From a virus (Duplodnaviria; Heunggongvirae; Uroviricota; Caudoviricetes), in IMG/VR virus record IMGVR_UViG_3300001242_000012: 64,000 bases of DNA, one strand, 5' to 3'. Shown here one piece after another: positions 4,878-62,884 of this stretch. How positions within the stretch are numbered: the first letter of the stretch is position 1; every line of letters starts with the position of its first letter. Position numbers and translations under genes: made by a program. The notes under the pieces were generated by a model. That model had not been told where the DNA came from, made no database searches, and was given only the letters and a program-made list of their open reading frames with translations.

Positions 4878-4890
4878 AATTACCTCCTTA

Positions 4891-6318: not shown

Positions 6319-7037
6319 TATCTCAATTCTCCTTCCAAATTTTGAATTATGCTTGCTACAGACCTTAACGGTTTAAGGATTTCATACGGGAATGTAGCAA
6401 CACCATCAAGATGTTTAATTAGGCTATGAACCCTGTCAACCCTTACTGTCCTGCCATTAGGTGTTTGCACAGCCAACGGATAGAAGTTACTGTTCTCAAG
6501 GTGCGCATTAAAATTTGAGCTAAAGAATTGCTCAACGAACCCAGATATACCGGCAAGATTCCTCCATTGTTTTGCTGTGCTATGTCCACCCCAACATATA
6601 TTAGCATCGTCCTGAACATTGGTGAATGGGAAGCGACACAATGTATCTGTTGTAATGAGTATTGGACCCTTAGCAGCATATACATGGCTTAATCTTAACA
6701 TATATTCTCCATTTTGATGTTGATTAAGAATAAATATAAATACACAGCTAGGTACAAGCACATTCTTGTAAACTCCTACAGAGCCTTCATCCTGATAACT
6801 AATACGCCTTCTAGTTTCAGGTATCTGATATACTATCAAAGTGCTAGCGTTTTTCTTAATCATCCTCACAACTCCGTGAGGAGAAGGCATGATACCTGTA
6901 TCATGCCGAAAGTCATTGGCAACTGCTTGAGCAAGGCCATCCGGTGAAATTTGCCTTGTTTTAGAAATCCCATTTTCATCATGTTCAATTAATCTCACGC
7001 TATCTGCGTGAATCTCTAATACAGCCCGTGGTTTCAT
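6318..7037 (-). CDS. candidate E2-like (UBC-fold) protein
   Basis: RFPFTNVQDDANICWGG resembles the E2 HPN...ICL catalytic region. It sits between the JAB and E1 genes. Assignment is weak. Confidence 0.3.
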   Translation of the reverse strand: MKPRAVLEIHADSVRLIEHDENGISKTRQISPDGLAQAVANDFRHDTGIMPSPHGVVRMIKKNASTLIVYQIPETRRRISYQDEGSVGVYKNVLVPSCVFIFILNQHQNGEYMLRLSHVYAAKGPILITTDTLCRFPFTNVQDDANICWGGHSTAKQWRNLAGISGFVEQFFSSNFNAHLENSNFYPLAVQTPNGRTVRVDRVHSLIKHLDGVATFPYEILKPLRSVASIIQNLEGELR

Positions 7038-8221: not shown

Positions 8222-8284
8222 AAGTTCTATGAAGTCAGCACGACGTAGGATTTCTACAGAAGTATTAATTTCTGTTCCTCCTTT

Positions 8285-8542
8285 CTATATATAGTCTGAG
8301 CTTGCCACAATAGCAGGGATTCTTTTGATCTTTTCGACAAGTTCTGATATTTGATTTATGACTACAGGCTGTCGGTTTACTACTTCTTTATGAGCTTTGA
8401 GTATGTCGTCTAAGGGCACTTTCATTAAATCATTGGCATTTGTAGCATTAATTACTTTATCAACTACTATCCTTACCTCAATAGGTAAATAATCGTAGTT
8501 GGGCAGATGAAGTAAGTTTTTAGCTAAGTTTTCAGTTGACAT
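8285..8542 (-). CDS. hypothetical protein (85 aa)
   Basis: Intact small ORF between the Ubl-like gene and the 394-aa gene. Confidence 0.4.
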   Translation of the reverse strand: MSTENLAKNLLHLPNYDYLPIEVRIVVDKVINATNANDLMKVPLDDILKAHKEVVNRQPVVINQISELVEKIKRIPAIVASSDYI

Positions 8543-8603
8543 ATAAACACCACCGTAACATATTTACCTGTTAATGGTGGGCAAAAGCCCACCATAACTA
8601 GAC

Positions 8604-8984
8604 TTAACCACGCAGCTTAGCGATGGCTTGCAAGAAGCGAGAGAAGAGACCTTTGGTACCAGCTTTAACTTCAAACTTAACAATCTCGCCTTCTTGGGTT
8701 GGAGTAGCATTTTGAAGTTCAGGGAAGATCTCAGCCATGGATTCCTTGATCTGAGCCAGGGTCATTGTGTCATCCTCAATAACGAGGTTGTTGCCTGCGT
8801 ATTGAACTGTACGAGTACCTTTGGTACCAGCCTTAACCTCGAATTTGATGATCTCGCCTTCTTGGGTTGGAGTAGCATTTTGCAGCTCCGGAAAAATTTC
8901 AGCCATAGACTCTTTAATTTGAGCCAGGGACATAGTGTCATCTTCGATTACCAAATTGTTACCTGCATACTGAACTGTTCTCAC
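8604..8984 (-). CDS. tandem-duplicated small beta-grasp/ubiquitin-like candidate (2 x ~56 aa)
   Basis: Two near-identical repeats of TRTVQYAGNNLVIEDDTM(S/T)LAQIKESMAEIFPELQNATPTQEGEI(I/V)KFEVKAGTKG. The DNA copies differ at many synonymous sites. Genomic context is E1/E2/JAB. Confidence 0.45.
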   Translation of the reverse strand: MRTVQYAGNNLVIEDDTMSLAQIKESMAEIFPELQNATPTQEGEIIKFEVKAGTKGTRTVQYAGNNLVIEDDTMTLAQIKESMAEIFPELQNATPTQEGEIVKFEVKAGTKGLFSRFLQAIAKLRG

Positions 8985-9067: not shown

Positions 9068-9946
9068 TTACTTAAGACAAGCTTGCTTAACAGCATTTGC
9101 CATATCTTCAAGTGTAGGAGTCAGAAACATTTTGGTTGCTTTGCCTTCATAGGCATTCTCATAATGTTTATATTCGTATTCATCAGGATTGAATATATAC
9201 AGACTCTTACTCTTTCTTCTTACTTCCTCAACAAGTCCAGGTGCTTCTTCTGAACCACGTGTATCGAGGTCAGACATGATAAATACAACAGTTTGAGGAG
9301 ACAATTTATTATGATAATCTTTTAATAGCTTTTTAAGGGCTTTGGGCAAATCAGTTCCACCGCCCCATTGTTGTCTTCTTTCGAGATTAGTCAATGTCTC
9401 TCTCCAGTCAGTCCTAATATCCTTGGTTACATATTCGAGCTTATTTGAAAATATAAATAGCTCAAACTTAGAGATCTCCTGACCGACTGCCTGACAAATT
9501 AAAGTCAATGTTTTAGCATGTCGATCCATTGAGCCTGACGTATCTAAAAGTACTAGTAGTCTAGGCTTATGAATTTTTTTAACCTTCCAGCTGATCTGAA
9601 TTGGTATACCACCAGTAGACTTTGCATTGTTTATAGTCTTACGGAAATTGATCATAGCCATTTTCTTACTTTCCTTGCGATGACGAGACATTGCTGTAAT
9701 GATCTGTCTGGCAATTTTCCGCATATTTCTACGTGCCTTAAGTACCTCGTCTTCATGTATATTAGGTCTCGTAAGATTGCCATCACTTTTTCCTGCTCCA
9801 GGTTGCCCAGGTTGTCCAGGTGGGCCTTCCGGCCCATCCTCATCACCTGGTTTACTTTGTACCTGCGACTGCTGTTGCTGGTTGGTATTTGTCATCCAGT
9901 TCCAAAAGTCTAGGTGGGCGTCTCTTACGCCCGCTCCAACAGCCAT
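9068..9946 (-). CDS. von Willebrand factor A (vWA) domain protein
   Basis: MIDAS motif LLVLLDTSGSMD (DxSxS) and an N-terminal Gly/Pro-rich collagen-like stretch. Its start overlaps the AAA+ gene. Confidence 0.75.
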   Translation of the reverse strand: MAVGAGVRDAHLDFWNWMTNTNQQQQSQVQSKPGDEDGPEGPPGQPGQPGAGKSDGNLTRPNIHEDEVLKARRNMRKIARQIITAMSRHRKESKKMAMINFRKTINNAKSTGGIPIQISWKVKKIHKPRLLVLLDTSGSMDRHAKTLTLICQAVGQEISKFELFIFSNKLEYVTKDIRTDWRETLTNLERRQQWGGGTDLPKALKKLLKDYHNKLSPQTVVFIMSDLDTRGSEEAPGLVEEVRRKSKSLYIFNPDEYEYKHYENAYEGKATKMFLTPTLEDMANAVKQACLK

Positions 9947-11145
9947 TTCGCTCCACCTCTCTCTTGCATCTTATCCAGATCTTCTCTGTTTTTAAGAAAC
10001 AGAGTTGTCAATTGATCAAGCAAGGGAGATTCAATTTTTCTTATGCCCATGTTTGTAAGGGCTGCAGCTAAGTCCAGGCTTTCTGAAACACTAGGCTGTT
10101 TGAGCAAGTTGACCTCATTACGAATAACACTCATGATTCTAGCAATCTGTAGAGCAGTGTTAGGTCGCAAAGTATCAGTTTTTTTCATCAAGATTGTTGC
10201 TTCCTTATCAATGGTCGGAAACCCGACCCAAAGGTAAACACAACGACGACGAAGTGCATCACCAAGATCTCTTACCCCATTAGACGTAAGGATAACTGGC
10301 GGAATCTTCTTAGCGATTACTGTTCCATATTCAGGTATTGATACCTGAAAGTCAGACAGTATTTCAAGAAGGTGAGCTTCGAACTCTTGGTCGACTTTAT
10401 CCACTTCATCAATAAGTAGAACCGGAGTAGGTTCTTCTCTCAATGCTTGGAGTAATGGCCTTTCAAGCAAGTAATCTTCACCAAAGATATTCCCATCGCC
10501 TTTACCACGTTGTATGTCAAGGATCTGTTTCTGATAGTTCCACTCATAAAGTGCATGAGTAGCGTCGATCCCGTCATAACATTGTAGCCGGATAAGCTTT
10601 GTGTTAAAGATTGTGGAAAGTACTTTTGCTAACTCTGTTTTACCACAGCCAGGTGGTCCTTCAACTAGTAATGGCTTACCAAGGGCAAGCGCTACGTAGA
10701 TGTTCATAGCGATATCAGCGCTGCAAACATACTTGCATCTAGTTTCCATTGTATCTTTCAGTGTGTCAGGATTTAGTTCGTTGATCATTTTTTGTAGTTC
10801 TCCTTTGCTACCAAACCTCTTTCTTAGGCCAAATACTATGTCTCTAAAGCCGTATTTAGTGTCGAGCATTATGTCATCAATAGCTTTAATACATCTTTGC
10901 TTTTTAGACAATGGTTTAAGTCCATGTTCCTTGCCGTATCCCAGGACTTCTTTCATCAACTGGTCATGTCTTATAATGAGGTTCATTGCTTCCATTGGAT
11001 CAATAGATCCAGTAGCTATTTCTTCATTCAGCTTTTCTTTAAGTTTAGCTGTAGACATATCAATCCATTCAGGAAGATCAACGCCTGCTTCTAAAGCTTG
11101 GTTCATTGATCTTCTATATGCCTTCTTAATCTCCTTGGGTTGCAT
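9925..11145 (-). CDS. MoxR-family AAA+ ATPase
   Basis: Walker A LLVEGPPGCGKTELAKVL, Walker B VLLIDEVDKV, sensor/arginine region ALRRRC. The pairing with a vWA partner is typical of MoxR. Confidence 0.8.
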   Translation of the reverse strand: MQPKEIKKAYRRSMNQALEAGVDLPEWIDMSTAKLKEKLNEEIATGSIDPMEAMNLIIRHDQLMKEVLGYGKEHGLKPLSKKQRCIKAIDDIMLDTKYGFRDIVFGLRKRFGSKGELQKMINELNPDTLKDTMETRCKYVCSADIAMNIYVALALGKPLLVEGPPGCGKTELAKVLSTIFNTKLIRLQCYDGIDATHALYEWNYQKQILDIQRGKGDGNIFGEDYLLERPLLQALREEPTPVLLIDEVDKVDQEFEAHLLEILSDFQVSIPEYGTVIAKKIPPVILTSNGVRDLGDALRRRCVYLWVGFPTIDKEATILMKKTDTLRPNTALQIARIMSVIRNEVNLLKQPSVSESLDLAAALTNMGIRKIESPLLDQLTTLFLKNREDLDKMQERGGAKWLLERA

Positions 11146-19673: not shown

Positions 19674-19735
19674 TCATAAATATAGTAAGCACGCCTACCA
19701 TATGTATAAATACTTAGGTGCACAATATTGTGCAC

Positions 19736-20572
19736 CTATATAATGCCTAACCTGGTCATTACCTTCTTAAGGTTTTCATCTTCAATTGATTTAAGAGTAT
19801 TGTAACGATTGATAATTAAATTTCTTTGTGTATCATGTACAGTAATTTCAATCTTATCAAAGGTGATGGGCGGATTTCTCTTGATTCCTTTGAAGATATC
19901 AGCAAGTTTACTATGAAGATAGTAGGTATCAGTTTCAGTTTGTACTAATACAGATATCAGGTCACGGTATTCCTTCTTTAGGTAGCAGAAATCGGAATTA
20001 CTATTGTAACCATACATATTTGCGTTATTTCTTAGGAAATAGATAAAGCGATGTGTAATCGTATCGATTCTTTTGATAAAATTTTTCATCACTATTTCTG
20101 GGATAGGATTGCCTGTCTCTTGAATAACTTTATCGAATTCCTCATACTTAGCAACTAATTTAGCCACTTCAATCTTACGATCCTTAGTGACTATGTATTT
20201 AAGACCAAGATGCTCTTTAATCTGTAGCCCCCATAGAAGATTAAATTCAGTTAACTTAGTAAGCATCCTCTTCATATCATTAGATTTTTCTTTAACTGGT
20301 TCCGGAGTTTCAGTCTGAGGTTCCCATTCCGGAAGTAAGATATCAGCTCTATTTATATTGCTACCTGTACCACGTATTCTAGTACATAGACCATTGGGAT
20401 AGTACTTAATATCTTTCCCATACACTCTGATACCATTTTTCTCTGTGGTAATGTAACCTACTAGCTTTTTTACTAGTAGGTCAACTTCCACAGCACATTC
20501 ATCGTAACTTTGGAGTAGCTTAATCGATTTAAATAGCTCTTCTACCGGGTTGATATCATATGCACTGTACAT
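19736..20572 (-). CDS. hypothetical protein
   Basis: 278-aa ORF. Confidence 0.45.
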   Translation of the reverse strand: MYSAYDINPVEELFKSIKLLQSYDECAVEVDLLVKKLVGYITTEKNGIRVYGKDIKYYPNGLCTRIRGTGSNINRADILLPEWEPQTETPEPVKEKSNDMKRMLTKLTEFNLLWGLQIKEHLGLKYIVTKDRKIEVAKLVAKYEEFDKVIQETGNPIPEIVMKNFIKRIDTITHRFIYFLRNNANMYGYNSNSDFCYLKKEYRDLISVLVQTETDTYYLHSKLADIFKGIKRNPPITFDKIEITVHDTQRNLIINRYNTLKSIEDENLKKVMTRLGII

Positions 20573-30279: not shown

Positions 30280-30307
30280 ATTATACTTCTTCCTTTATAT
30301 TTGTTTT

Positions 30308-31056
30308 ATGGTGGACGTAGGGGGAGTTGAACCCCCGTCCGGAACTGTTACCCTAAACCGTCTACCTAGAATAGACCATCGTGGTCAACGGCAGCACTAA
30401 GTAGCTTGCTCACTTTCATCACTGGGTAGGAGTCGAACCTACAAACTGTAATAACAGCCACGCTTCAGCGTGTAACCTCTGGGTGGACACCCGTAAGCTC
30501 ACTTAGTTACATATAGAGCCGACGTGTCGCTTTGCCAATTTGCCACCAGTGATATTTATTAACCTCCACCACTTGCATTTAGGATGCAAGAAACTATTTG
30601 CCATAGAGTAGGGATTTTAACCCTACATGGACTGAATTTCGGCCACCTACCACCATATTATCATTAGCGACTCCTTAATGGGTTAGGGTTGCACTAATGT
30701 ATGCGAGGCCAGTTTCTAATACTCTACCAGGTTGTCTTCAGAGAACGACCCATAGTTCTCCTACGTACCTTACTAGTCAGTCCTAAACCGGAAAGAGCGA
30801 TTGCTTTCGCCTTCTATGACCTATTGCCTATCTGTAGCCCTTCCGAACTACTGTTTCCGATAGGACTCTCCCATTCTTTGACCCTCATCCGATTGCTGGG
30901 ATAAGCTCGGTGTTTTGGGGCTGATCTCCCAGCTCTAAAGTTAATTAGAGACTAGGCAGCTTGAAGAGTAGTTTTGGCATTTAAAGCCTTGTGGTTATAT
31001 GGTAACCAACCTCTAGGCAAGTTTTACTCTCACGCTCCGTCGAAACCCGGTACGCC
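30308..31056 (-). ncRNA. ssrA: tmRNA-like (SsrA-like) gene, unusually long (~750 nt)
   Basis: Minus-strand 5' end GGGCGUA-CC-GGGUUUCGACGG matches the tmRNA TLD signature (compare B. subtilis GGGGACGUUACGGAUUCGACAGGG). The 3' end CGGACGGGGGUUCAACUCCCCC-UACGUCC-ACCA gives a T-arm plus an acceptor strand complementary to the 5' GGGCGUA with one G-U, then an encoded CCA. An in-frame tag-like ORF sits about 70 nt from the 5' end: GCC AAA ACU ACU CUU CAA GCU GCC UAG = AKTTLQAA*, close to B. subtilis ...GGCAAAACUAAC...GCUGCCUAA. Confidence 0.5.
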
Positions 31057-45120: not shown

Positions 45121-45576
45121 CTATAAGTCGTATATCTTTGATATACTAATGCCATAGTTAGATCCAGGCAATATAGCTTGCACTAAGGAAATTATCTTAT
45201 TTGGATCGCAGTATGCATATCTACTGGATCTACTCATTTTTCCAGTACCCATATGCTTGTACCATGTTACATAGTCTACGAGCCTGTAAGGATATCTCTT
45301 GAGTAGAGACAGACCATACTCGGTAACTACATAATCTGATCCATCAGTTAGTAGACAATCAGTTTCAACTAACTTATTAAGATACGATAGCCTCTTACTC
45401 TTATTCATTCCCCATAACGGTCCCCATGGAGCACGTAATCTAGTACCAGCTCTCCAATGACCATTATGTAAATCAGCTCTTATACCACCTATGCCTTCAT
45501 CACCAGGATAGTGATACAGGTAGCATAATATTGTGAACATACGATGCCGATCATTCTTATAGCGCATAGATGTCAC
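45121..45576 (-). CDS. hypothetical protein
   Basis: 151-aa ORF. Confidence 0.45.
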   Translation of the reverse strand: MTSMRYKNDRHRMFTILCYLYHYPGDEGIGGIRADLHNGHWRAGTRLRAPWGPLWGMNKSKRLSYLNKLVETDCLLTDGSDYVVTEYGLSLLKRYPYRLVDYVTWYKHMGTGKMSRSSRYAYCDPNKIISLVQAILPGSNYGISISKIYDL

Positions 45577-48445: not shown

Positions 48446-49015
48446 TTATAAAAAATAAAGTAGTAACTCTTCACCAGGCGGCAATGGACAGTGTTCCTTC
48501 CACTGTAGTTTCCTGACCACTGACCACCCATTAAAGTTAATATTACTAAAGTCATACTTATCATACAATCTACTGTCAATTGATAAACGTAATGAAATAT
48601 AATCTGGGCAGTACTGAATAAGAACTTCTGACAGTTGTTTTAAAGCAACAATATCAGCGTCAGTGGATTCATAATGGACTGTATAGTGTAGTCCGTGAAT
48701 GTATCTGAATATTACTTTATAGAAATCTCTAAGCTCATTATTATACAATGCACTATAGAGATAAACCTTACCATTGTATTTTACATCATTGAGCCGTTGT
48801 ACAAATTCTAATATATTTTTAGGTATCTTACAAGGCTCACCACCTGTGATAATGATCTCCTTATAATCTAGGAGATCATTTGGATTTGAAATGAGTTTTG
48901 CCCTACCAATCATATCGGTAGTTGAGCAGTTAGGACACTTCCTATCACACCTCAGTGTAGTAATCACTCTTGCTTTATCCATCCACACGCCTCCCTTAGA
49001 TAAGCGCAACCACAT
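48446..49015 (-). CDS. radical SAM protein (small activase/QueE-like)
   Basis: LRCDRKCPNCS (Cx3Cx2C) and IIITGGEPC (GGEP SAM-binding motif). Confidence 0.5.
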   Translation of the reverse strand: MWLRLSKGGVWMDKARVITTLRCDRKCPNCSTTDMIGRAKLISNPNDLLDYKEIIITGGEPCKIPKNILEFVQRLNDVKYNGKVYLYSALYNNELRDFYKVIFRYIHGLHYTVHYESTDADIVALKQLSEVLIQYCPDYISLRLSIDSRLYDKYDFSNINFNGWSVVRKLQWKEHCPLPPGEELLLYFL

Positions 49016-49170
49016 CTATAACTGAGACTTGCGCAATTAATACAACATTTATATCTATGCTTATCACTTCTACGAGAATAAGATTTTAATGTTATGCCGC
49101 AAATAGTTTTACAAGGCATTCTACAGCTTCCATCATAGAAGTATGGGCATTTACTAGTTATGTCATACAT
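48964..49170 (-). CDS. small Cys-rich protein (MYDITS.C.YF..G.C..PC...CC.NC family)
   Basis: Paralog of 49163..49372 and relative of 50516..50734. Confidence 0.45.
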   Translation of the reverse strand: MYDITSKCPYFYDGSCRMPCKTICGITLKSYSRRSDKHRYKCCINCASLSYRCGCAYLREACGWIKQE

Positions 49171-49372
49171 TACTATTCCTCATGTGTAATCTCATTTTAT
49201 AACATCCACAATCTGCGCTAACGTTCACACAATTAGCGCAGCATTTATACTCATACATATCAGATGCATGGCCACTATACTTTATTGTAGTCGTACCAAG
49301 TAACGTTTTCATACATGGTAGACGACACATACCATTTTTAAAGTAGACACACCTACTAGTTATGTCATACAT
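49163..49372 (-). CDS. small Cys-rich protein (same family)
   Basis: MYDITSRCVYFKNGMCRLPC...KCCANCVNVSADCGC. Confidence 0.45.
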   Translation of the reverse strand: MYDITSRCVYFKNGMCRLPCMKTLLGTTTIKYSGHASDMYEYKCCANCVNVSADCGCYKMRLHMRNSNV

Positions 49373-49944
49373 TATAGCTTTATGAATCCAGATAACTGAA
49401 CAATGAACACATCACTGAGTGTACACGAGCCATCAGTCATCGTAACCTTAATGATATCTCCTACAGACATGGATCTTCCCCTATAGTCATCAGGACGATA
49501 TACATTAAATTTAGTGAATAAGTGTTCTGCCAGTTCCTCAGTCGGGTAATTATCAGGATTAGGCGTGAATTCACCCTTATCCGTATACACTAATTGATAA
49601 TCACTAAACATCATAGGCTGTTGGTAGATGCTTGCAATGTACTCTATATTACATCCAACGACAACAACATTGTCTAAGGACACATAATCTGAATATCCAT
49701 TGTATATATTGCTCTCAGCAGTTACACAGTGGATAGTGTCATCCAGAACACGGGCCATAGCCTTTACTTTCTCGCCCTTTCTGAATACTACCACGAATCT
49801 ACCACAGTTATCGGCATACTCATCCTTAATGAATGTAATAGTAACTGGGATTTCCTTACCTACACAACTATCATGTTTGCATGCAGGACAATTTCCGCAA
49901 CCATTGAATTTGCCTATTTTAAGCATGATGGACCTCCTATTCAT
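49372..49944 (-). CDS. hypothetical protein
   Basis: 190 aa; N-terminal CGNCPACKHDSC. Confidence 0.45.
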   Translation of the reverse strand: MNRRSIMLKIGKFNGCGNCPACKHDSCVGKEIPVTITFIKDEYADNCGRFVVVFRKGEKVKAMARVLDDTIHCVTAESNIYNGYSDYVSLDNVVVVGCNIEYIASIYQQPMMFSDYQLVYTDKGEFTPNPDNYPTEELAEHLFTKFNVYRPDDYRGRSMSVGDIIKVTMTDGSCTLSDVFIVQLSGFIKL

Positions 49945-50515
49945 ACCTATTATAATCTAAATCTATCCATAGTGAGCATGTCTTACATTTTTCATTACCA
50001 TTGCCTGTACACAATGGATAGATTGTATCCTCCCATATCTTTGGTGCTGCAGCCACAACAATTTCTATTACATATACCGTTCTTGAAGCTAGTACATTTA
50101 GTCACTATGTTAAATACATCTATGATATCACTTCCTAGTGATTAGAATGTAGACAACTAATCTGGCCCAAAACATTCTTCATACCATGCATCACATGGTT
50201 CGCTACAATCTATGGTACATTTCCTACAACACTTTGGTTTAGTGTCTTTACATTCGTCTTTCATAGGTATACTAGTCTCACAATTCTTATCATATTCCAT
50301 TATATCACTCCTCCCGTATCGTATATTATACAGAATATAATCATAGTTACTATCAGAATGATAATGGAGCACATAATACAATCATACATACGTATAAGCT
50401 GCTCATTACTAATCTTTCCCTTACATACTAGTGATACAATAAGTGGGCCTATCATTATTAGTAATGCTATAATCATTATGACGTACGCCAGTGTATCTGC
50501 TATGTTACATTCCTC

Positions 50516-50734
50516 CTAATGCTGTATCACAAATCTTATTTTTTGGCAACAACACCTGTAACTGAGATGAACGCAATTTATACAACATGGAGCAGGACTA
50601 TCCTCAAATGCCATACCTTCGTATTTACCATATGGTATACTACACATAAACTTACACATACCGTTATCATACCATATACACTTATTAGTTACATTGTAGA
50701 TACTGTGCATTATATACCTCCTGTAACTATTCAT
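50516..50734 (-). CDS. small Cys-rich protein (CCINC family)
   Basis: NKCIWYDNGMCKFMC...PCCINCVHLSYRCCC. Confidence 0.4.
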   Translation of the reverse strand: MNSYRRYIMHSIYNVTNKCIWYDNGMCKFMCSIPYGKYEGMAFEDSPAPCCINCVHLSYRCCCQKIRFVIQH

Positions 50735-50805
50735 GCACCCATTAGAACTAAGGCCATATCTCTCATACTATATATCTACTATATAGCCTAGATAACTATA
50801 TATTT

Positions 50806-51590
50806 TCTCCTCTATATAGGGCACAGGACTACTTATGGCCACTTATCACCGGACAGAGCTTCATATTGCCTTACAGGGTATCTCCCTCTCATTTAGAGAG
50901 TATTTCTAATCTCAATCAATTTATCACCAATCCTGAGGCAATGGCACCCATTACTAAGGTCAGCACAGTTTATACAGCACTTATATATATGATAGTCCTC
51001 TATAATCATATCTTTAAGTGTATATACTATTTCTCCCTTATAGTTTAGTAATGCCCTACACTTTCTATTGCACATACCATCATTATAGTATGGACACTTA
51101 CTAGTTATACTATATATGCTATCACCCCTATATATTTATATTAATATCTTCCCTATATAGGAATTGTCAGATAATTCTCAGATTTCTCCCTATATAGGGA
51201 CTAACATTACATCTTACAGAGTATCTTCCATAGAATGACTGCTATTATTATTAGTACAACAGTTTGTAACATTATATCACCTCCTTATGCTATATATAAG
51301 ACTATAAGTGCACATCATAAATATATACACACATATACACTAGTGCCGCATTCAAATCCTATTGTAGCTGAAAGCCTATGATATAGCCGAAGGCTTAGCT
51401 CACAATGCCCTTAATTCTCACCAGGATGCCCTACAGCATGAGCTAACTCCACTTCAGGTATTACGAGTCCTGAAGTGAAAATTAGCTACTGTACGGGCCT
51501 TAAATCAAAGCAACTAGGATATCTTAATGTGTTATACTAATTACTAATGTGTTATACTAATACGGTATTTCCCTATATAGAGATAATCGT
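50806..51590. repeat. cluster of at least 5 copies of a CCCTATATAG(G/A) palindromic motif plus a tandem TAATGTGTTATACTAAT x2 repeat, in a mostly non-coding stretch
   Basis: Motif copies at about 50811, 51151, 51187 and 51571, with a degenerate one at about 51127. The tandem 19-mer is at 51527-51564. Confidence 0.5.
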
Positions 51591-51618
51591 ATTAGTATGT
51601 CACAATTAACTTAATATG

Positions 51619-52971
51619 TTATACTCTTGCTGCTCTAGCAGCCTTGATAGTCAAGTAGTTGACTAAGCGCTTATGAGCATAGCCTAACATTTGCGCATAG
51701 ATCTGATGAGTCATACCAGCTCTCTTGAAGTAGTAGTCAACAACTTGCTCACCCTTGTCATCCAACATAGGGTTGCCGTCCTTGTCTTTCTTCTCTACTC
51801 TAGCATATATACCAGAGAGACGGACGTACATACGACCAAGCTCATCAGTCTCCTGAATTATGGCATAGTCTTCAGCATCACCTGCTACTCCACGAATGGA
51901 TAATATTACCTGATGACCATCACGTGTCATCCAGCCAACATTCTTGACGAGTGCTTCAGTTACACTCTTGAATTTCATGATGGGCTGATCACCAATGGTA
52001 ATAAATCCCAACTCCTCATTGATTTGTTCATCAGTCACCATACTCATATCGATCTGCTTAGGACCAACGAATAATGACCCACGCTCTAAGTACCACAATT
52101 TGTTCTTTAATGTAGCACCAGCACCCATAGTAGGTGTATAGTCACCATCAAATGCTCCAGCCTCATAATCAGCTGCAATCTCAGCAGTGTCAGGACGGCC
52201 AGTAGCACCAGCACTACTCAACATACCAGTAATGGACGGCCTACCAGCAGCACCAATGGTCGGACGAGTGGTAGCAGTGCTGTTACGTAAGGCAGCAAGT
52301 GCACTGGCCATGTTACCACCTTTAGCACTTATGGTCTTGTCGCTGATCTTAACATCAACGGTAGCAGTGGTGGTAGCGCCATTGGTAGCAGGTGCAGTAG
52401 CATCTTTGGTAGCACCTGTAAGTTGGTTGAGTTTGTTCTGGATGTTATTTGTCATAGCGTTAGTCATTGTGGATTCCCCCTTATTATTGTTGATTAATGC
52501 AGCCAATTTAGTTTGAGCCTCAGTTACTGAATTCATAGTAGTAGCCTCCTTAGTATTATTAACTTCAGTTAAACCGTGATGAGCTGCTAACTCTTCTGCA
52601 CGGTCAACCAACATATTAATTAACTCGCCCATTTCCCATTCACTATGGGCTAAGCGATAAGGGATTTCAACCAGCAATGAGTGGACAGGACCCTTAACCA
52701 TAGCCACTCTGAATCTAGCATCTAACGCGACATTCCCAGCATCACTGCTATAATAGGCATTACCACCATAGAGGAGCAAGAACAGACCAGGAGCCAATAT
52801 CTTAAGGGTATCATAACCCTTGAATAAATCATGCTGATTCATCTTAGTACCAGCACCCATGCACTTAGCAATAATCTCATCCATACTAGGCACGGGAACA
52901 ACCAGCTCAACATCAGTTACAGTGCTTTCGTTAATCATTTCAGGAAATTGTACAGTGTTTTTCTTAGTCAT
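51619..52971 (-). CDS. hypothetical protein with Ala/Thr/Gly-rich central low-complexity region (possible virion protein)
   Basis: Start chosen at MTKKNTVQF with a GAGGAGGT RBS. The low-complexity ATGATTTA... region is typical of decoration or scaffold-like proteins. Function unassigned. Confidence 0.5.
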   Translation of the reverse strand: MTKKNTVQFPEMINESTVTDVELVVPVPSMDEIIAKCMGAGTKMNQHDLFKGYDTLKILAPGLFLLLYGGNAYYSSDAGNVALDARFRVAMVKGPVHSLLVEIPYRLAHSEWEMGELINMLVDRAEELAAHHGLTEVNNTKEATTMNSVTEAQTKLAALINNNKGESTMTNAMTNNIQNKLNQLTGATKDATAPATNGATTTATVDVKISDKTISAKGGNMASALAALRNSTATTRPTIGAAGRPSITGMLSSAGATGRPDTAEIAADYEAGAFDGDYTPTMGAGATLKNKLWYLERGSLFVGPKQIDMSMVTDEQINEELGFITIGDQPIMKFKSVTEALVKNVGWMTRDGHQVILSIRGVAGDAEDYAIIQETDELGRMYVRLSGIYARVEKKDKDGNPMLDDKGEQVVDYYFKRAGMTHQIYAQMLGYAHKRLVNYLTIKAARAARV

Positions 52972-53089
52972 TTTAAATGACCTCCTCATATTATTTTGTA
53001 TTCAGTTGTCACAGCGCAGGGTACACCTATGGTTTCCCTGGCCCTTCCTTACCTCGCTCGCTACGCTCGCTCGGTAACGGCAAAATGGT

Positions 53090-53172: not shown

Positions 53173-55071
53173 TTAGCCACAAAGACTGGTGAATAGAGCA
53201 TACATCTTATCTCGAAAGACAGGATGCAGCTTTTCTACACACTCATAGACGGCCTCAACTCCTTTGTCTGGTAATATTGAGCCTTTCACAATATTGTCCG
53301 CAACTTGGACTAGGAAATCTCTAGCCTTAGTTGCATCATCCAATGCTATGGCGAGTTCCTTGTGGTGTGCAGCAGGCATATCCTCAACCATAGGTACTAA
53401 GTCAACGAGTAACTCATCAGTTGACTTAACAATATTAGAAAAGATATACTCAGAGAATATGCCGAGTACATCACTAATGAATTGCTCCCTCTCTCTACCT
53501 TGTATGTCATAAGGAGTAGGTTTAACGAAATTATTCTCAACTTTACTCTTGACAGTCTTCAAATCCCTGACTACCTCGAATAGCTCAGGTATAATCGTGA
53601 TGTATATACCATGCCCGGTATTAAACATCACACGTCCAGTGTATTCAGCATTGATTCCATGACCATCACCAGGAAGACCAATGCTCCATGACGGGATACT
53701 AGCACCCTTAGGAATGCGCTCAGTGAATGCAGCGATCTTATGTTCAATGTTCCATGAATCTCTATGCCATAAGCCAGGAATTCTACCACTAGGACCGCTA
53801 AACCTATAGTATGGGCAGCTTCCACCCATCTTGGTCCCAACATCGTAGAGTAAACCAGTCCAGTTCACAATCTTTCCACCATATGGATAACGGTATGTTG
53901 CACCTCCAACAGCACCATAACCATATATTGGTATGCGATTGCCGTATTCATCCAACTCGTATTCATATCTCTTTTCACCAGTGGTAGCATCAACTACCTC
54001 CAACCTCTTATGACCTATAATTGCATTGACATCCTCTTTATCTCTGAATGCCCACTCATTGCGGACATTCTCAGCATCCAGCATAGGATTAGTGAGTGTC
54101 ATGCAACACACACTACTGCTATTAGCATCCTTGCCTGTCCTCTTCTTATCTGATATTGTATAATCAGATAAGGATAAGAACATGTGCCCTTCATGATCAG
54201 GATACATGCGCTTGAAGTTCACGCATGTTACGCAACTCTGAACTTTTACACCACCATCAGGCCATACTCCAGGACTACCATCATGAATGGTATGTGTACC
54301 CTTAAACATATTGGCGATGGCAGTGAGGCAGGCATTCACCTCCTGGACTACTGGTGCACCTTTCCCGCAATAAGCTGGATCAAGCGCTTGGAATCTATTA
54401 GTGATCCATACGTCACTATAATATTTCCCATCGGTTTTAGACTTCCTAGTCGGGAAGCCACACATTACTGGGCCATCATCCCAACTCATGGCTTCTAATA
54501 CCCAAAGGCCAGTACCCTCGGATTTAATAAAACCTTCCTTCCTGCGTACAGGTACACAATTGAGTGTTGCGGCATCAATATCCTTTATCAACACCCAATC
54601 TTCCTTCTTACTACCAAAGCGGTAGAACATTCCAGTGGTAACAACTCCAGGAGGTAGTTGAACCAAGAGTCTACCATGTAGGTGTCCAGTTCCTCTCTCT
54701 CCAGTTTTCTTTCCCTCTGCATCACGCTTGTCAAACGTGAAGGAACGCATTGGCTTCGAGCCAAATCCCTCAGCATCAACTACTACTATTTCAGTAGTAA
54801 TTTCCTGGATCTTCTCCAGTGGGGTTTCACCAATATCAACTGATGAATATTTGACTGACACCTCCTTCTTAGTTGATACATCGGTACCAACGTGTTTACT
54901 ATGAGCGTCCTTCAGTAGAAGAATCACCGAATGGATCTGCGACAGGCGGTCATTCTTTTGTGCCTGTGTAAGATCGTCCCTGGACTTTAACTCTCTGGCT
55001 TCCAGGGATAAAGCTTTGATCTTCTCCTCAGCATTCTCTCTGCTGAGATTTGCTAATATGGTTTGTGTCAT
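53173..55071 (-). CDS. large hypothetical protein (about 630 aa)
   Basis: Start chosen at MTQTILANL with a GAAAGGAG RBS. Followed by a strong terminator, which suggests high expression. No motif recognised. Confidence 0.55.
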   Translation of the reverse strand: MTQTILANLSRENAEEKIKALSLEARELKSRDDLTQAQKNDRLSQIHSVILLLKDAHSKHVGTDVSTKKEVSVKYSSVDIGETPLEKIQEITTEIVVVDAEGFGSKPMRSFTFDKRDAEGKKTGERGTGHLHGRLLVQLPPGVVTTGMFYRFGSKKEDWVLIKDIDAATLNCVPVRRKEGFIKSEGTGLWVLEAMSWDDGPVMCGFPTRKSKTDGKYYSDVWITNRFQALDPAYCGKGAPVVQEVNACLTAIANMFKGTHTIHDGSPGVWPDGGVKVQSCVTCVNFKRMYPDHEGHMFLSLSDYTISDKKRTGKDANSSSVCCMTLTNPMLDAENVRNEWAFRDKEDVNAIIGHKRLEVVDATTGEKRYEYELDEYGNRIPIYGYGAVGGATYRYPYGGKIVNWTGLLYDVGTKMGGSCPYYRFSGPSGRIPGLWHRDSWNIEHKIAAFTERIPKGASIPSWSIGLPGDGHGINAEYTGRVMFNTGHGIYITIIPELFEVVRDLKTVKSKVENNFVKPTPYDIQGREREQFISDVLGIFSEYIFSNIVKSTDELLVDLVPMVEDMPAAHHKELAIALDDATKARDFLVQVADNIVKGSILPDKGVEAVYECVEKLHPVFRDKMYALFTSLCG

Positions 55072-55163
55072 GTGGACACACTCCTTTCGGCGGTTAGGTC
55101 GCCACCCAATATTAGTGCATAAGCACCAGAAAACCCAGGATGTTACTCCTGGGCTCAAGCTAC

Positions 55164-56358: not shown

Positions 56359-57038
56359 TATTAAATTCCTCCAATATAATTTTATGTCAGTCTTTCAACT
56401 GCATGTCGACCACTAGCTAGTTGATTAACCTGTTTCACCTCCTCCAGGTTAAAGCCCTCATATGAGGGCCAAGATTAATGCATTGCTAGTTTTCTCTTCT
56501 CCACTTCCTTCCTAGTAATTTTACTTGCATTCTTTGCTATAGTGGCGAGCACACGCAGAGGATCTCTTCCACTGGGATCAGCAACGTACTCGCTGATATA
56601 ACGTGATATCCTTAACAGCTCATCATCAATTTTATGCATACCCACGTCCTCCTAATTAATTATTTATCGACCATTATACATGGACTATAGCGCCATGAGC
56701 TGACCCAATTCACCTCCTATGGGCTAAATGTTGGTTATACGAAGATCAAGACGATGCGCGGGTACAAGTTATCGGGGCGCAGTAGAACGCCTACACCGCA
56801 GGCATTCGGTATTACGGTACTACTAGGTCTTGCAGTGTTATAATGTTGCTGTGAATATTGGAGCATGATTGTTAAAACCCCTTTTCTGACGATTAGTATG
56901 TTTAGACTGTGTATATTGAATGATGCTGTATTGCGGAAAGACTAGGCAACCCTCCTCCTGCTAAATACTTTTCTTGCCCACCCACCTTGTAGAGCATAGC
57001 TAACTCTACCCCATTTACCACAGAGGAACTATATACTA

Positions 57039-60901: not shown

Positions 60902-62122
60902 TTACATTTAGGTACTAGGTGCAGGTACTCATTCTTGTCTACATCCGGTACCTCGATGAACGGAGAAGAGCTTTCAACCTCAGGCATTACGATGATGTCT
61001 GTTCTTAAAGTGATGATACCAATAGGTGCATCTACAATAAGAGCGTTTCCAATTGTGATAGCCTTCCTAGTTCCTACTAATCCAAATTTCATAACACATT
61101 CTCCTTCCGCGTATCATGCTCGCCAGCTAATAGTAACTCATATGAGCCCTACTATACCTACTACTATGAATAGATATAGTAGAGCGCATATAGCGCCCTA
61201 CTTGGTTAACTTTTTCATTGCCTCCATGAACTTACGGTAGTCACCTACCTTCATCGCTAGGTAGGCTTGATCTACCTTTCTTCTCTTTTCTCTTTCCATC
61301 ATCCTGGCAGCTAACTTTGTTTCTTCTACGTTCCATTTCATTGTACATACCTCCTTAATTAGTAGTCTAATAGACTCCATAGCGTGCACCGCTATATAAG
61401 CCAGTGCACACAAGCAATCTACTATACTGCCTTAGCGGATAAGGCCCATCTATACATGTCAAGGCATAACGCCTCAGCCATATATCTATTTCTTGCTCTT
61501 ACCCTCTCCAGGAACTCGAATTCTTCATTGTTCTCGTTCCTAGCCTTAACCCATACCCAGTACATTGTCATTGCGCATTCTCCTTTATCCATGCCTTCCC
61601 ATACAGGGTAAGGTCTTACAGGTAGGGCATATAGACCCTATACTACATACACATATATGCACTATAGAGCCCATATGCATACATAGAAGTACTTATACAC
61701 ATATGTATGCATACATATATACTATCTACTTATATACTGTATACCTACTACAGTATAGATGTCACACATGATGCTGACGTACATCATGCTAGCAGTGAGT
61801 CTTGTGTGCTCTATGTTATCTACTACATATGTGACTATATACATGTAGCCACCTCCTCTACATAAGTATAGCCCTGTACATACACTGTGCGCATACATAC
61901 AGGGCTACTATGGGTACACCTACAGTACTATATCTACTATAGATATATACTTATACATAATACTCATGAGTACATACATGTAGTAGTGCACTACACTGTA
62001 CTCATACTCATTACACGTAATCTCATACTCATGTTCTATCATATATACCACATCCTCTCTAGTCTGTCTCATCAGTACATAGAGGCTACCTATGTATACA
62101 TGGGCATACACCCATGTTTCGA

Positions 62123-62419
62123 CTATTGTACATTCCAGAAGTACTTAATGTTCTGTCTATACACATCAAGTACATCGGCTAGTACATGCTCACCATTATC
62201 ATGTAGTAGTTGTATCTGTTCTACTGTTACCCATATGTCTCTACCTTTGTAATACACAAGAGTAGGTTGATTTAAGGCTACAGTTACAGTACTACCATTA
62301 ATAGTTGCTAATCTCATTATACATTCTCCTTCATCCATGCCTGCCATCTGGTCAGGTCTTACAGGTATATATTGATGGGGGTGGGTAAAACACGAAAGTT
62401 GATATTCCATCATATACAT
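62123..62419 (-). CDS. hypothetical protein
   Basis: 98-aa ORF at the edge of the low-complexity junction. Its non-repetitive composition suggests it is real. Confidence 0.35.
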   Translation of the reverse strand: MYMMEYQLSCFTHPHQYIPVRPDQMAGMDEGECIMRLATINGSTVTVALNQPTLVYYKGRDIWVTVEQIQLLHDNGEHVLADVLDVYRQNIKYFWNVQ

Positions 62420-62539
62420 AATACCCTAGTATAAAATAATTCAAGTTTTAGACCCTAGTATAAAATAATTTCACTCTACATGAAATTCCCATGTGTAAAT
62501 TACTCCAAAATGTAGGTATTAGTAGTATGAGGTGATAAT

Positions 62540-62884
62540 GTGGAGAATTTATATAATATGTACATCACTCAAGAACTGAGTACTTACGAGATAGGTGCTA
62601 CCCTTGGCGAGTACAGTACTACGGTGCAAAGGAAGTTGAAGAGACTTGGTATACCACTACGGAGCAGGTCTGAATGTCATAAGACCAGTAGTGAACTAGA
62701 TAGGATTAGTGGTCGTAGGAAGTATGTGATTGGTGATAAGGTTGGGATGTTAACCATACTTGGTGACTATGGTCATAATGATCGTGGAGAGCTACTATAT
62801 CTGTGTCGCTGCGAATGTGGGAAGGAATTGAAGGTCAGAGCTAATAAGATTCCTAAGTCATGTGGGTGTAGAAGAAAAATTTAG
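62540..62884 (+). CDS. HTH DNA-binding protein with C-terminal Cys cluster
   Basis: LSTYEIGATLGEYSTTVQRKLKRLGI helix-turn-helix, then CRCECG...CGC. First plus-strand gene after the strand switch. Confidence 0.5.
   Translation: MENLYNMYITQELSTYEIGATLGEYSTTVQRKLKRLGIPLRSRSECHKTSSELDRISGRRKYVIGDKVGMLTILGDYGHNDRGELLYLCRCECGKELKVRANKIPKSCGCRRKI

What the first reader, a model, noticed from the sequence alone, without database searches (positions are those of the whole stretch)
50806..51590. Cluster of palindromic CCCTATATAGG motifs and a tandem TAATGTGTTATACTAAT repeat in an ~800-bp gene-poor stretch
Five copies of (T)CCCTATATAG(G/A) occur within 800 bp, and a perfect tandem 19-mer is present at 51527-51564. 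They sit at the boundary where base composition shifts, upstream (on the coding strand) of the small Cys-rich genes and the AT-rich block. The motif is a perfect palindrome around TATATA. It could be a phage-specific promoter consensus (T7-like single-subunit RNAP promoters are ~20-bp conserved boxes), a set of operator sites, or replication-origin iterons.
Basis: seen in the sequence. Interest (0 to 1): 0.55.

Follow-up and report, generated by a model that had tools for sequence, protein, structure and literature searches.

The report
Local palindromic control sites, huge phage
A 12-14-bp palindrome (TCCCTATATAGGGA) is repeated only within one 0.8-kb stretch of a 244-kb uncultured phage, ahead of tandemly duplicated tiny genes and a probable structured RNA, so it is most likely a local gene-control site and not a genome-wide phage promoter.

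Summary
All five CTATATAG octamers found in 83.4 kb of this phage lie in window 50779-51580. Four are full sites of the form YCYCTATATAGRG(A): 50809, 51150, 51187 and 51570. The tandem repeat is a perfect 17-mer, present twice at a 20-bp period. There is also a degenerate third copy and an inverted copy, and together they form a 57-bp imperfect palindrome centred on site 51570.

The region is an array of duplicated cassettes: a Cys-rich small ORF followed by a tiny membrane peptide. The palindrome is the best-conserved intergenic block. Next to it lies a candidate ~190-nt structured RNA (51335-51525, minus strand, z = -4.5) followed by a 21-aa hydrophobic ORF.

The motif is absent from the other ~82 kb examined, which argues against a T7-like genome-wide promoter. 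The motif hairpins are too weak to be terminators. There is no GC-skew signal of an origin.

My best reading, at about 0.4, is a set of operator-type binding sites for a dimeric regulator at cassette-specific promoters. The phage has no relatives in any collection searched and no recognisable regulator gene nearby, so the mechanism stays inferred. The kind of element is ordinary and this instance is new. Interest is modest.

The parts
50809..50822 (-). Palindromic site 1 (site-I type). The coding (minus) strand reads GCCCTATATAGAGG followed by AGAAAAT. It lies 70 nt after the stop of Cys-rich ORF B and 98 nt before the ATG of ORF A.
   Evidence: Homologous by position to site 4 in the alignment.
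50776..50788 (-). Degenerate site (site-II type) upstream of ORF A. The minus strand reads GGCTATATAGTAG and is preceded by TTATCT. It lies between TTATCT and a TATAGT -10-like hexamer 17 nt further on.
   Evidence: The hexamer reading is my own inspection of the sequence.
51126..51135 (-). On the coding strand it is ATATATAGGGGTGA, the Shine-Dalgarno region of ORF B. It aligns with the AGGAGG ribosome-binding site of ORF A and is probably not a true site.
51150..51163 (-). Palindromic site 3 (site-II type). The minus strand reads TTCCTATATAGGGA and is preceded by ATTATCTGACAA. It lies inside the 16-nt spacer of a sigma-70-like match, CTGACA-16-GATATT.
51187..51200 (-). Palindromic site 4 (site-I type), a perfect 14-bp palindrome TCCCTATATAGGGA followed by GAAAT. 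It starts 6 nt after the stop of the 21-aa ORF and is 37 bp centre-to-centre from site 3.
51570..51583 (-). Palindromic site 5. The minus strand reads TCTCTATATAGGGA, preceded by ATTATC and followed by AATACC. It starts 35 nt after the stop of the 456-aa gene and sits at the centre of a 57-bp imperfect palindrome.
   Evidence: (I4)
51525..51561 (.). Two perfect 17-mers, TAATGTGTTATACTAAT, at a 20-bp period. On the + strand each contains TGTGTTATACT, an extended -10-like TRTGnTATAAT match.
   Evidence: (D4)
51588..51628 (.). An inverted partial copy of the 17-mer (51588-51604, pairing with 51548-51564 at 88% over 17 nt) and a degenerate direct copy (51612-51628, 14/17) that overlaps the last codons of the 456-aa gene.
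   Evidence: (I4, D4)
51335..51525 (-). Candidate structured RNA, either a free ncRNA or a long 5' leader. It is a GC island (43-46% GC against 25-30% in the flanks). The predicted fold is a closed Y shape at -68.3 kcal/mol, z = -4.5. The + strand folds 13.7 kcal/mol less well.
   Evidence: No Rfam match.
51207..51272 (-). A 21-aa hydrophobic ORF, MLQTVVLIIIAVILWKILCKM, with a strong Shine-Dalgarno sequence (AAGGAGGTGA). A decayed copy lies at about 50860-50886. It resembles the N-terminus of the 58-aa membrane ORF at 50300-50476.
   Evidence: (D5)
50893..51117 (-). Cys-rich small ORF B, a paralogue of 50516-50710, 48964-49170 and 49163-49372. It has no ATG/GTG/TTG at the homologous start position and reads ATA there.
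50516..50710 (-). Cys-rich small ORF A (64 aa), preceded by an AGGAGG Shine-Dalgarno sequence.
   Evidence: (P0005)

Best explanation
The CCCTATATAGGG elements are short DNA-level control sites that belong to a tandemly duplicated small-gene cassette. Each cassette carries a Cys-rich ORF of about 65-75 aa followed by a tiny membrane peptide. One cassette position is occupied by a structured RNA of about 190 nt plus a 21-aa ORF.

Each cassette carries one or two copies of a 12-14-bp dyad, YCYC-TATATA-GRGR, just after the previous ORF and 30-100 nt before the next start codon. I infer that a dimeric DNA-binding regulator, phage or host and not identified, binds these dyads.
- The 'site-II' copies (51150, 51570, 50779) lie inside or at the edge of weak sigma-A-like promoters: a TTATCT or CTGACA -35-like hexamer, a 16-18-nt spacer, then a TATAGT, GATATT or TATTAG -10-like hexamer.
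- The 'site-I' copies (51187, 50809) lie 20-37 bp upstream, where they could act as auxiliary sites for cooperative binding.

On this reading the cluster switches one local block of small genes on or off. It is not the phage's general promoter. The 17-mer repeats flank site 5 symmetrically and form the AT-rich head of the structured-RNA unit. They could be promoter elements or sites for a second factor.

**Shown:** the sites, their symmetry, their restriction to this locus, the duplication history, the predicted RNA fold.
**Inferred:** protein binding, the promoters, the regulatory outcome.
For: - **Restriction to one locus.** All CTATATAG copies in 83.4 kb lie within 0.8 kb.
- **Dyad symmetry kept in each copy.** Each carries a different single deviation: CTC in the left arm of site 5, GAG in the right arm of site 1, a shortened left arm in site 3.
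- **Best-conserved intergenic block.** In the alignment of the regions upstream of ORFs B and A, the core is the only long ungapped identical block, and the surroundings are full of gaps.
- **Position relative to promoter-like hexamers.** Site 3 lies in the spacer of CTGACA-16-GATATT. TTATCT precedes sites 3, 5 and 50779.
- **A precedent.** The same decamer, CCTATATAGG, occurs as a pair 34 bp apart between the divergent C repressor and cox genes of many P2-like prophages. That geometry matches the one published for the W-phi C operator, with 10-bp half-sites 34 bp apart (PMC1904268).
- **RNA hairpins are weak.** They fold at -3.8 to -7.1 kcal/mol, no better than shuffles, which favours recognition at the DNA level.
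Against: - No DNA-binding protein is recognisable within about 10 kb. Only one sub-threshold wHTH hit appears, at 45121-45576.
- There is no P2 C or Cox homologue in the 83 kb.
- The sigma-70-like matches are weak and no more frequent than in shuffled sequence: 5 found against 6.6 expected.
- Sites 3 and 4 are 37 bp apart, about 3.5 helical turns, which is not in phase.
- Direct duplication alone explains part of the similarity and the shared orientation.
- No relatives exist, so conservation across genomes could not be tested.
Confidence: 0.4

Rival explanations
1. The sites are local promoters. The element is the core of a promoter, read by a phage-encoded or phage-modified RNA polymerase or by an odd host holoenzyme. 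TATATA would be the melting region, and transcription would start in the GGGAGA purine tract as at T7-type promoters. Tandem copies would drive the small-gene cassettes and the structured RNA.
For: - On the coding strand, site 4 reads CTATATAGGGAGA. TATAGGGAGA equals T7 positions -4 to +6 (own knowledge of the T7 consensus, sequence).
- Every copy lies directly after the preceding ORF and upstream of the next one, at the head of the AT-rich small-gene block.
- Pseudomonas phage SM1 shows the same pattern. All 6 of its CTATATAG copies lie within 0.9 kb of a gene-poor stretch, and two read CCTATATAGGGAGACCATAATG and CTATATAGGAGAATCATTATG just before start codons.
Against: - There are no copies elsewhere in 83.4 kb carrying about 130 co-oriented genes.
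- Positions upstream of about -10 are not conserved.
- The dyad symmetry is not needed for a promoter.
- No RNA polymerase gene was seen in the window. The largest ORFs are 661, 475 and 474 aa and carry no RNAP domains.
- No consistent -35 element is present.
Confidence: 0.2
2. The element acts on the minus-strand transcript. A small anti-SD/SD-like hairpin (UCCCU-AUAU-AGGGA) followed by a polypurine tract would serve as an intercistronic processing site, a 5' mRNA stabiliser of the STAB-SD type, or a protein-binding hairpin. The 57-nt hairpin around site 5 would be an RNase III-like site ahead of the structured RNA.
For: - The right arm plus flank is Shine-Dalgarno-like (GGGAGA, GAGGAGA) with no usable start codon behind it.
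- The host uses strong AAGGAGGTGA Shine-Dalgarno sequences.
- Site 5 sits at the tip of a 17-bp stem in the minimum-free-energy fold.
- A similarly shaped hairpin, GCCCTCATATGAGGGC, follows a stop codon at 56454-56469 and folds at -12.5 kcal/mol.
Against: - The hairpins are weak and not better than shuffles.
- Site 1 has a C-A mismatch on the coding-strand RNA, while site 5 keeps pairing only through a G-U pair. The variation tracks DNA dyad symmetry and not RNA pairing (I18, 49).
- No U-tract follows.
Confidence: 0.12
3. The copies are relics of duplication with no function of their own. They would be left over from repeated partial duplications of the 5' end of the cassette, including TATATAG-like strings derived from the ATG-TAT-GAC / ATA-TAT-AGT start of the Cys-rich ORFs and their ribosome-binding sites.
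For: - The repeat families have a period of about 342 bp (D1, D5, D9).
- The TATATAG at 51110-51116 lies in the first codons of ORF B, and the copy at 51126 lies in its ribosome-binding site.
- The phage is clonal across samples, so selection cannot be read from variation.
Against: - The 12-14-bp core is much better conserved than the surrounding intergenic DNA, and better than the 34-38% protein identity of the paralogues.
- Symmetry is kept in every full copy.
- Site 5 lies in a non-homologous context, ahead of the RNA element.
Confidence: 0.12
4. The region is a replication origin or a partition site. The 20-bp-period 17-mers would be iterons, the palindromes binding sites for an initiator or centromere-binding protein, and the 25% GC stretch the unwinding element. 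The unknown 456-aa protein next door would be the initiator.
For: - Direct repeats two helical turns apart, plus an inverted copy and an AT-rich segment.
- The third repeat overlaps the 3' end of the 456-aa orphan gene.
- Arrays of (A)CCTATATAGG(T) at a period of about 22 bp exist in other metagenomic contigs.
Against: - There are only two perfect repeats.
- The palindromes are irregularly spaced: 37, 341 and 383 bp.
- Cumulative GC skew shows no inflection here. The only turn is near 62 kb, where gene orientation flips.
- The 456-aa and 661-aa neighbours match no replication or partition family.
Confidence: 0.07

Closest known systems
Operator of the immunity repressor C in P2-like coliphages (W-phi type: two 10-bp half-sites 34 bp apart at the early promoter Pe)
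   Same: The same decamer, CCTATATAGG, is used as a repeated site. It occurs in pairs a few helical turns apart in a phage intergenic control region next to promoter hexamers.
   Different: - Here the spacing is 37 bp, not 34.
- Four or five sites are spread over 0.8 kb.
- No C or Cox homologue is present in 83 kb.
- The setting is not a divergent lysis-lysogeny switch.
- The host type appears unrelated, judging by the strong-SD, Firmicute-like signal.
- The resemblance is in how the sites may work, not in family membership. That CCTATATAGG is the C operator in those prophages is itself my inference from geometry.
T7-group single-subunit RNAP promoters (TAATACGACTCACTATAGGGAGA)
   Same: TATA followed by GGGAGA on the coding strand at site 4. 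Tandem copies lie at the head of a gene block.
   Different: The conserved block is shorter and is a dyad. There is no conserved -17 to -10 part. The sites are confined to one locus. No cognate polymerase was seen.
CTATATAG cluster of Pseudomonas phage SM1 (Samunavirus), NC_041877.1 71652-72581
   Same: All six copies in a 93-kb genome lie in one gene-poor stretch of about 0.9 kb ahead of small ORFs, as C(T)CCTATATAGGG followed by purines.
   Different: The phage and host are unrelated (54% GC locus). Its function is also unknown. Two of the SM1 copies abut real start codons, which is not the case here.
Type I toxin-antitoxin loci and structured 5' leaders of small hydrophobic peptides
   Same: A 21-aa hydrophobic ORF with a strong Shine-Dalgarno sequence lies behind a long, strongly folded leader. 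Extended -10-like motifs on the opposite strand lie upstream.
   Different: There is no evidence for an antisense RNA. The peptide is part of a duplicated cassette together with Cys-rich ORFs. Nothing has been tested.

Membership tests
T7-like single-subunit RNAP promoter | An asymmetric consensus of about 19-23 bp, conserved from about -17 to +6 in all copies | tested here: not met
   Only about 14-18 bp are shared (YCYCTATATAGRG plus a purine tract). The sequence upstream of the C-rich arm differs in every copy.
T7-like single-subunit RNAP promoter | Recurs across the genome upstream of gene blocks | tested here: not met
   There are no further copies in 83.4 kb, 34% of the genome.
T7-like single-subunit RNAP promoter | A cognate single-subunit RNAP gene in the genome | tested here: inconclusive
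   No ORF in the window is large enough or matches an RNAP family. The flanks show PolIII-alpha, NrdD, terminase and portal only. Two thirds of the genome were not seen.
T7-like single-subunit RNAP promoter | Initiation region TATA followed by GGGAGA | tested here: met
   Site 4 reads TATAGGGAGA. Sites 3 and 5 read TATAGGGAAG and TATAGGGAAA, and site 1 reads TATAGAGGAG.
Repressor operator (dimeric HTH type, e.g. P2/W-phi C, lambda-like) | Dyad-symmetric or repeated half-sites of about 10-17 bp | tested here: met
   One perfect 14-bp palindrome and three near-perfect ones.
Repressor operator (dimeric HTH type, e.g. P2/W-phi C, lambda-like) | Overlap with the -35/-10 elements of the regulated promoter | tested here: inconclusive
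   Site 3 lies in the spacer of CTGACA-16-GATATT. TTATCT-17-TATAGT lies around 50779 and TTATCT-18-TATTAG around site 5, read. Such matches are at chance frequency.
Repressor operator (dimeric HTH type, e.g. P2/W-phi C, lambda-like) | A cognate regulator gene adjacent | tested here: not met
   No HTH or other DNA-binding family was found in neighbouring ORFs. There is no P2 C or Cox homologue. The neighbours are orphans, so a novel regulator cannot be excluded.
Iteron-type replication origin | At least 3-4 direct repeats of 17-22 bp in helical phase, next to an AT-rich unwinding region | tested here: inconclusive
   There are two perfect 17-mers 20 bp apart, one 14/17 copy 67 bp further on, and one inverted copy. 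GC is 25% at 51520-51599.
Iteron-type replication origin | A skew inflection and/or an adjacent initiator gene | tested here: not met
   Cumulative GC skew is monotonic through 51 kb. The 456-aa neighbour matches no family and has only one remote homologue.
Intrinsic terminator | A stable GC-rich hairpin followed by a U-tract | tested here: not met
   Motif hairpins fold at -3.8 to -7.1 kcal/mol with z between -0.1 and -1.5. No terminator-like site lies at any copy.
Known RNA family (for 51335-51525) | A match to an Rfam covariance model | tested here: not met
   There were no hits at gathering score. At E<=10 only noise appeared, at 15-18 bits.

The most novel reading that the evidence does not exclude
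The locus may be a self-contained RNA-centred module of a huge phage. The palindromes would be cassette-specific promoters with a T7-like initiation region, read by an unrecognised phage polymerase or factor. They would launch a novel structured RNA of about 190 nt and a 21-aa membrane-peptide gene. Opposing extended -10 promoters in the 17-mer repeats would supply an antisense partner. The whole would then be a new phage-borne type-I-toxin-like or RNA-regulated switch at the boundary between two expression blocks.
Probability: 0.1. Interest if true: 0.6.

Novelty: new member of a known kind. Interest (0 to 1): 0.3.

Why it matters
Gene regulation in uncultured huge phages is essentially unknown. 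This locus gives a small, precisely delimited and experimentally portable candidate: four dyad sites, two 17-mer repeats, one candidate structured RNA and tiny genes. The motif is strictly local, which rules out its use as a genome-wide promoter marker for annotating this phage. If a binding protein or transcription starts were found, the locus would show how a huge phage controls a fast-evolving, tandemly amplified block of small Cys-rich and membrane proteins that sits next to an HxsC-like radical SAM enzyme. As it stands, it is an ordinary kind of element in an unusual genome.

Tried and rejected
**Comparative analysis gave nothing.**
- DNA and protein searches against INPHARED found no match.
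- IMG/VR scans with the 456-aa, 661-aa and YodL-like proteins and with P0007 found no relatives.
- A JGI metagenome scan with P0007 found none.
- The 5.8-billion-protein search returned only fragments of the same phage.
- The 1.84-billion-representative HMM search found one 28%-identical protein.
- Every contig fetched is 100% identical to the window, so there are no strain variants.

**Readings rejected.**
- Stop-codon recoding as the cause of the gene-poor stretch: every frame carries at least two kinds of stop, and all three stops end genes.
- Terminator function.
- A known RNA family for the structured region and a tRNA or tmRNA there.
- A P2-type C/Cox switch.
- NrdR, Zur, DnaA and LexA boxes, considered from memory. 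The spacing or half-sites do not fit, and these were not tested formally.
- Invertase sites: sites 1 and 5 are exact 12-nt inverted copies (I18), but no recombinase domain lies nearby.

**Analyses that were uninformative.**
- De novo k-mer enrichment in intergenic gaps found only the Shine-Dalgarno motif and no second promoter-like motif.
- The sigma-70 and extended -10 scan of the window was too noisy in this AT-rich DNA.
- AlphaFold on the four Cys-rich paralogues gave pLDDT 49, so no fold search was run.
- The literature search for the motif strings found only unrelated eukaryotic CArG-box and primer hits.
- The sample and assembly accessions appear in no searchable paper.

Full report
**Source and setting.**
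The window is part of an uncultured phage genome of about 244 kb.
- Proteins from the window lie on ENA scaffold ERZ28564079 ANAN16-1_SAMN03203002 scaffold_26 (244,005 bp), on NCBI CACVGJ010000001.1 (244,049 bp) and on Logan contigs of SRR1658469 and SRR3309327. Every copy fetched is 100% identical to the window.
- Almost all genes up to about 62.4 kb are on the minus strand. To the right, terminase and portal genes run on the plus strand. To the left lie PolIII-alpha and NrdD.
- Recognisable genes include RtcB, a NAMPT-like enzyme, an SNF2 helicase and an HxsC-like radical SAM enzyme.
- Intergenic k-mers are dominated by AAGGAGGTGA, which suggests a host that relies on strong Shine-Dalgarno sequences.
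- The finding sits where a 41-46% GC block of larger orphan genes (52-61 kb) meets a 33-38% GC block of small genes.

Yes.
- The palindromic octamer CTATATAG occurs five times in the window, at 50779, 50812, 51153, 51190 and 51573, and nowhere else.
- I added 9.8 kb on the left and 9.7 kb on the right from identical contigs. The result was unchanged over 83.4 kb. The 14-mer TCCCTATATAGGGA with up to 2 mismatches occurs only at 51150, 51187 and 51570.
- As a look-elsewhere control over all 256 palindromic 8-mers, a cluster of five within 1 kb appeared in 2 of 300 Markov shuffles.
- Four sites are full copies of YCYCTATATAGRG(A): 50809-50822, 51150-51163, 51187-51200 (a perfect 14-bp palindrome) and 51570-51583.
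On the coding strand it is the GGGGTGA ribosome-binding region of a small ORF, and it aligns with the AGGAGG ribosome-binding site of its paralogue.
- The tandem repeat is a perfect 17-mer present twice at a 20-bp period (51525-51541 and 51545-51561). A 14/17 copy lies at 51612-51628 and an inverted partial copy at 51588-51604.
- The second direct copy (51548-51564) and the inverted copy (51588-51604) bracket site 51570. Together they make a 57-bp imperfect palindrome, 51548-51604, with 17-nt arms 88% complementary.

**What lies around the sites.**
All positions below are read on the minus, coding strand.
1. The 456-aa orphan gene stops at 51619.
2. Site 5 follows 35 nt later.
3. A 346-nt stretch (51273-51618) is closed in all frames. 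No single-stop recoding opens it.
4. A 21-aa hydrophobic ORF (51272-51207) follows, with a strong Shine-Dalgarno sequence.
5. Site 4 starts 6 nt after that ORF's stop, and site 3 lies 37 bp further on.
6. Cys-rich ORF B follows (51117-50893). It has ATA where its paralogues have ATG.
7. A decayed remnant of the small peptide comes next, then site 1, then a degenerate site at 50779.
8. Cys-rich ORF A follows (50710-50516), then a 58-aa membrane ORF.

Repeat families with a period of about 342 bp (D1, D5, D9) and the alignments show tandem duplication of one cassette. In the alignment of the two intergenic regions:
- Site 4 matches site 1: TAGTCC...CCCTATATAG(A)GGAG(A)AAAT.
- TTATCT followed by 0-8 nt and then CTATATAG recurs at site 3, at site 5 and at 50779.
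- The dyad core is the only long ungapped identical block, although the encoded paralogues are only 34-38% identical.

Because the duplications are direct, the shared orientation and part of the flank similarity follow from descent. They do not show that the element has a direction.

**A probable structured RNA.**
- Positions 51335-51525 form a GC island of 43-46% between flanks of 25-30%.
- The minus-strand RNA folds into a closed Y shape at -68.3 kcal/mol, z = -4.5, with 0 of 200 shuffles as good. The plus strand reaches only -54.6 kcal/mol.
- The larger 331-nt segment gives z = -5.15.
- Rfam finds nothing and ARAGORN finds nothing.

I treat it as a candidate ncRNA or a long leader of the 21-aa ORF. 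Without relatives, covariation cannot be tested.

**Weighing the readings.**

*Genome-wide phage promoter.* The motif is absent from the other ~82 kb, which carry about 130 co-oriented genes. The conserved part is short and symmetric, and no polymerase gene is visible. A local promoter is not excluded. Site 4 reads TATAGGGAGA, the T7 -4 to +6 sequence (own knowledge), and every copy lies at the head of a unit.

*Terminator or stable RNA hairpin.* Rejected. The hairpins fold at -3.8 to -7.1 kcal/mol, are not better than shuffles, and no U-tract follows.

*RNA element.* The pattern of variation argues for DNA. Sites 1 and 5 are exact reverse complements of each other (I18). The single deviation therefore falls in either arm of a DNA dyad. 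On the coding-strand RNA it is a G-U pair in one site and a C-A mismatch in the other.

*Origin.* Weakly supported. There are two perfect iteron-like repeats and an AT-rich segment. There is no skew inflection, the palindromes are irregularly spaced, and no initiator is recognisable.

*Operator.* This fits the symmetry and the pairing. It also fits the position of three sites between weak -35-like (TTATCT, CTGACA) and -10-like (TATAGT, GATATT, TATTAG) hexamers (sequence). Those hexamer matches are at chance level, and no regulator gene is detectable.

**Precedents found.**
- *IMG/VR scan.* Searching for CCTATATAGG-N15-45-CCTATATAGG returned 43 loci. Most are P2-like prophages of the Yersinia L-413C / E. 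coli P2-like type. In these, two decamers lie 34 bp centre-to-centre between the divergent C repressor and cox genes. That is the geometry published for the W-phi C operator (PMC1904268). It shows that this decamer can serve as an operator half-site, but there is no homology to the present locus.
- *Pseudomonas phage SM1.* Another hit from that scan. All six CTATATAG copies in its 93 kb lie within 0.9 kb of a gene-poor stretch. This parallels the present finding, and its function is also unknown.
- *Metagenome scan.* It found many arrays of (A)CCTATATAGG(T) at a period of about 22 bp. These scans were designed to find pairs, so they show what is possible and say nothing about frequency.

**Verdict.**
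The feature is real and non-random. It is best explained as a set of local DNA control sites, operator-type dyads at cassette-specific promoters, that were amplified together with a small-gene cassette. The sites lie beside a candidate structured RNA. My confidence in the operator reading is about 0.4. A plain local promoter is at about 0.2. An RNA-level element and a functionless duplication relic are at about 0.12 each. An origin or partition site is at about 0.07. The kind of element is known and this instance is new. It cannot be resolved further without transcript ends, the rest of the genome or a relative.

Noticed in passing
window 30280-30700 (minus strand), especially 30309-30366: A 420-nt non-coding, GC-richer gap ends in a tRNA-like 3' domain, GGACGGGGGTTCAACTCCCCCTACGTCCACCA. 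Rfam tmRNA matches only the acceptor/T-arm part (29.6 bits, E 3.6e-10, below the gathering score of 47). A second T-arm-like GTAGGTTCGACTCCTAC lies at about 30425-30441. ARAGORN calls nothing. It may be a divergent phage tmRNA or a tRNA-like RNA.
   Followed up: partly
window 48446-49015 (minus strand) and the small ORFs at 48964-51117: A 189-aa HxsC-like radical SAM protein carries CX3CX2C (CDRKCPNC) and GGEP motifs. It matches phrog_31524 and is 27-30% identical to crAss-like and LoVEphage proteins. It sits at the downstream end of, and overlaps by about 50 nt, a tandem family of 60-75-aa proteins with 8 invariant Cys (C-x7-C-x3-C ... CC-x-N-C-x6-C-x-C). These could be substrate peptides or metal-binding partners. 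The family has no homologues outside this phage.
   Followed up: partly
window 50893-51117 and 49937-50105: Cys-rich paralogue B has ATA where the others have ATG, so it is either a non-canonical start or a decaying copy. Another paralogue appears split by a frameshift into the ORFs 49995-50105 and 49937-50056. This suggests rapid birth and death of these genes.
   Followed up: partly
window 4017-8984 (minus strand): A ubiquitin-like conjugation set lies in a row: ThiF/E1-like (4017-4877), JAB (4891-6318), Prok-E2_D (6318-7037) and a faint Prok_Ub hit (8604-8984). It sits next to VWA and AAA+ genes at 9068-11145.
   Followed up: no
NC_041877.1 (Pseudomonas phage SM1) 71652-72581; locus L037: All six CTATATAG copies in this 93-kb genome lie in one gene-poor stretch of about 0.9 kb. 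Two read CCTATATAGGGAGACCATAATG and CTATATAGGAGAATCATTATG directly before start codons. The first resembles the T7 phi10 start GGGAGACCACAACGG (own knowledge).
   Followed up: partly
loci L010-L052 (e.g. L022 1356-1399): About 35 P2-like prophages carry CCTATATAGG-N24-CCTATATAGG between the divergent C repressor and cox genes. Related prophages keep the decamers while the spacer sequence and length change (21-24 nt). These are probable C operators of this immunity type.
   Followed up: partly
metagenome loci such as L076, L091, L116, L122 and L125; also L132, L102 and L075: Arrays of (G)ACCTATATAGGT(C) and close variants (ACCAATATAGGT, ACCTATATTGGT) occur at a period of about 22 bp in 50-60% GC contigs, many of which appear to be gut-metagenome assemblies. 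Other tandem arrays are built around the same decamer. They look like iteron or centromere arrays. The elements that carry them were not identified.
   Followed up: no
window 56454-56469 and 19715-19738: Strong perfect palindromes sit right at or after stop codons. GCCCTCATATGAGGGC folds at -12.5 kcal/mol with z = -3.7. TAGGTGCACAATATTGTGCACCTA is 24 bp long and its first three bases are the stop codon. They are probably intercistronic hairpins or terminators.
   Followed up: no
window about 61600-62540: Part of this stretch is non-coding. It contains the point where leftward and rightward (structural) genes diverge and where GC skew turns. It is rich in TATGTAT, GTATAT and TATAGTAGATATAG-like repeats and shares the 13-mer TATATCTACTATA with 50771-50783.
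   Followed up: no
window 51619-52989 and 53173-55158 (minus strand): The two large genes just upstream of the finding (456 aa with a long Thr/Ala/Gly-rich linker, and 661 aa) are near-complete orphans. They have no Pfam, PHROG or PDB match. In 5.8 billion and 1.84 billion protein sets, the only hits besides fragments of this phage are to one 28%-identical protein.
   Followed up: partly
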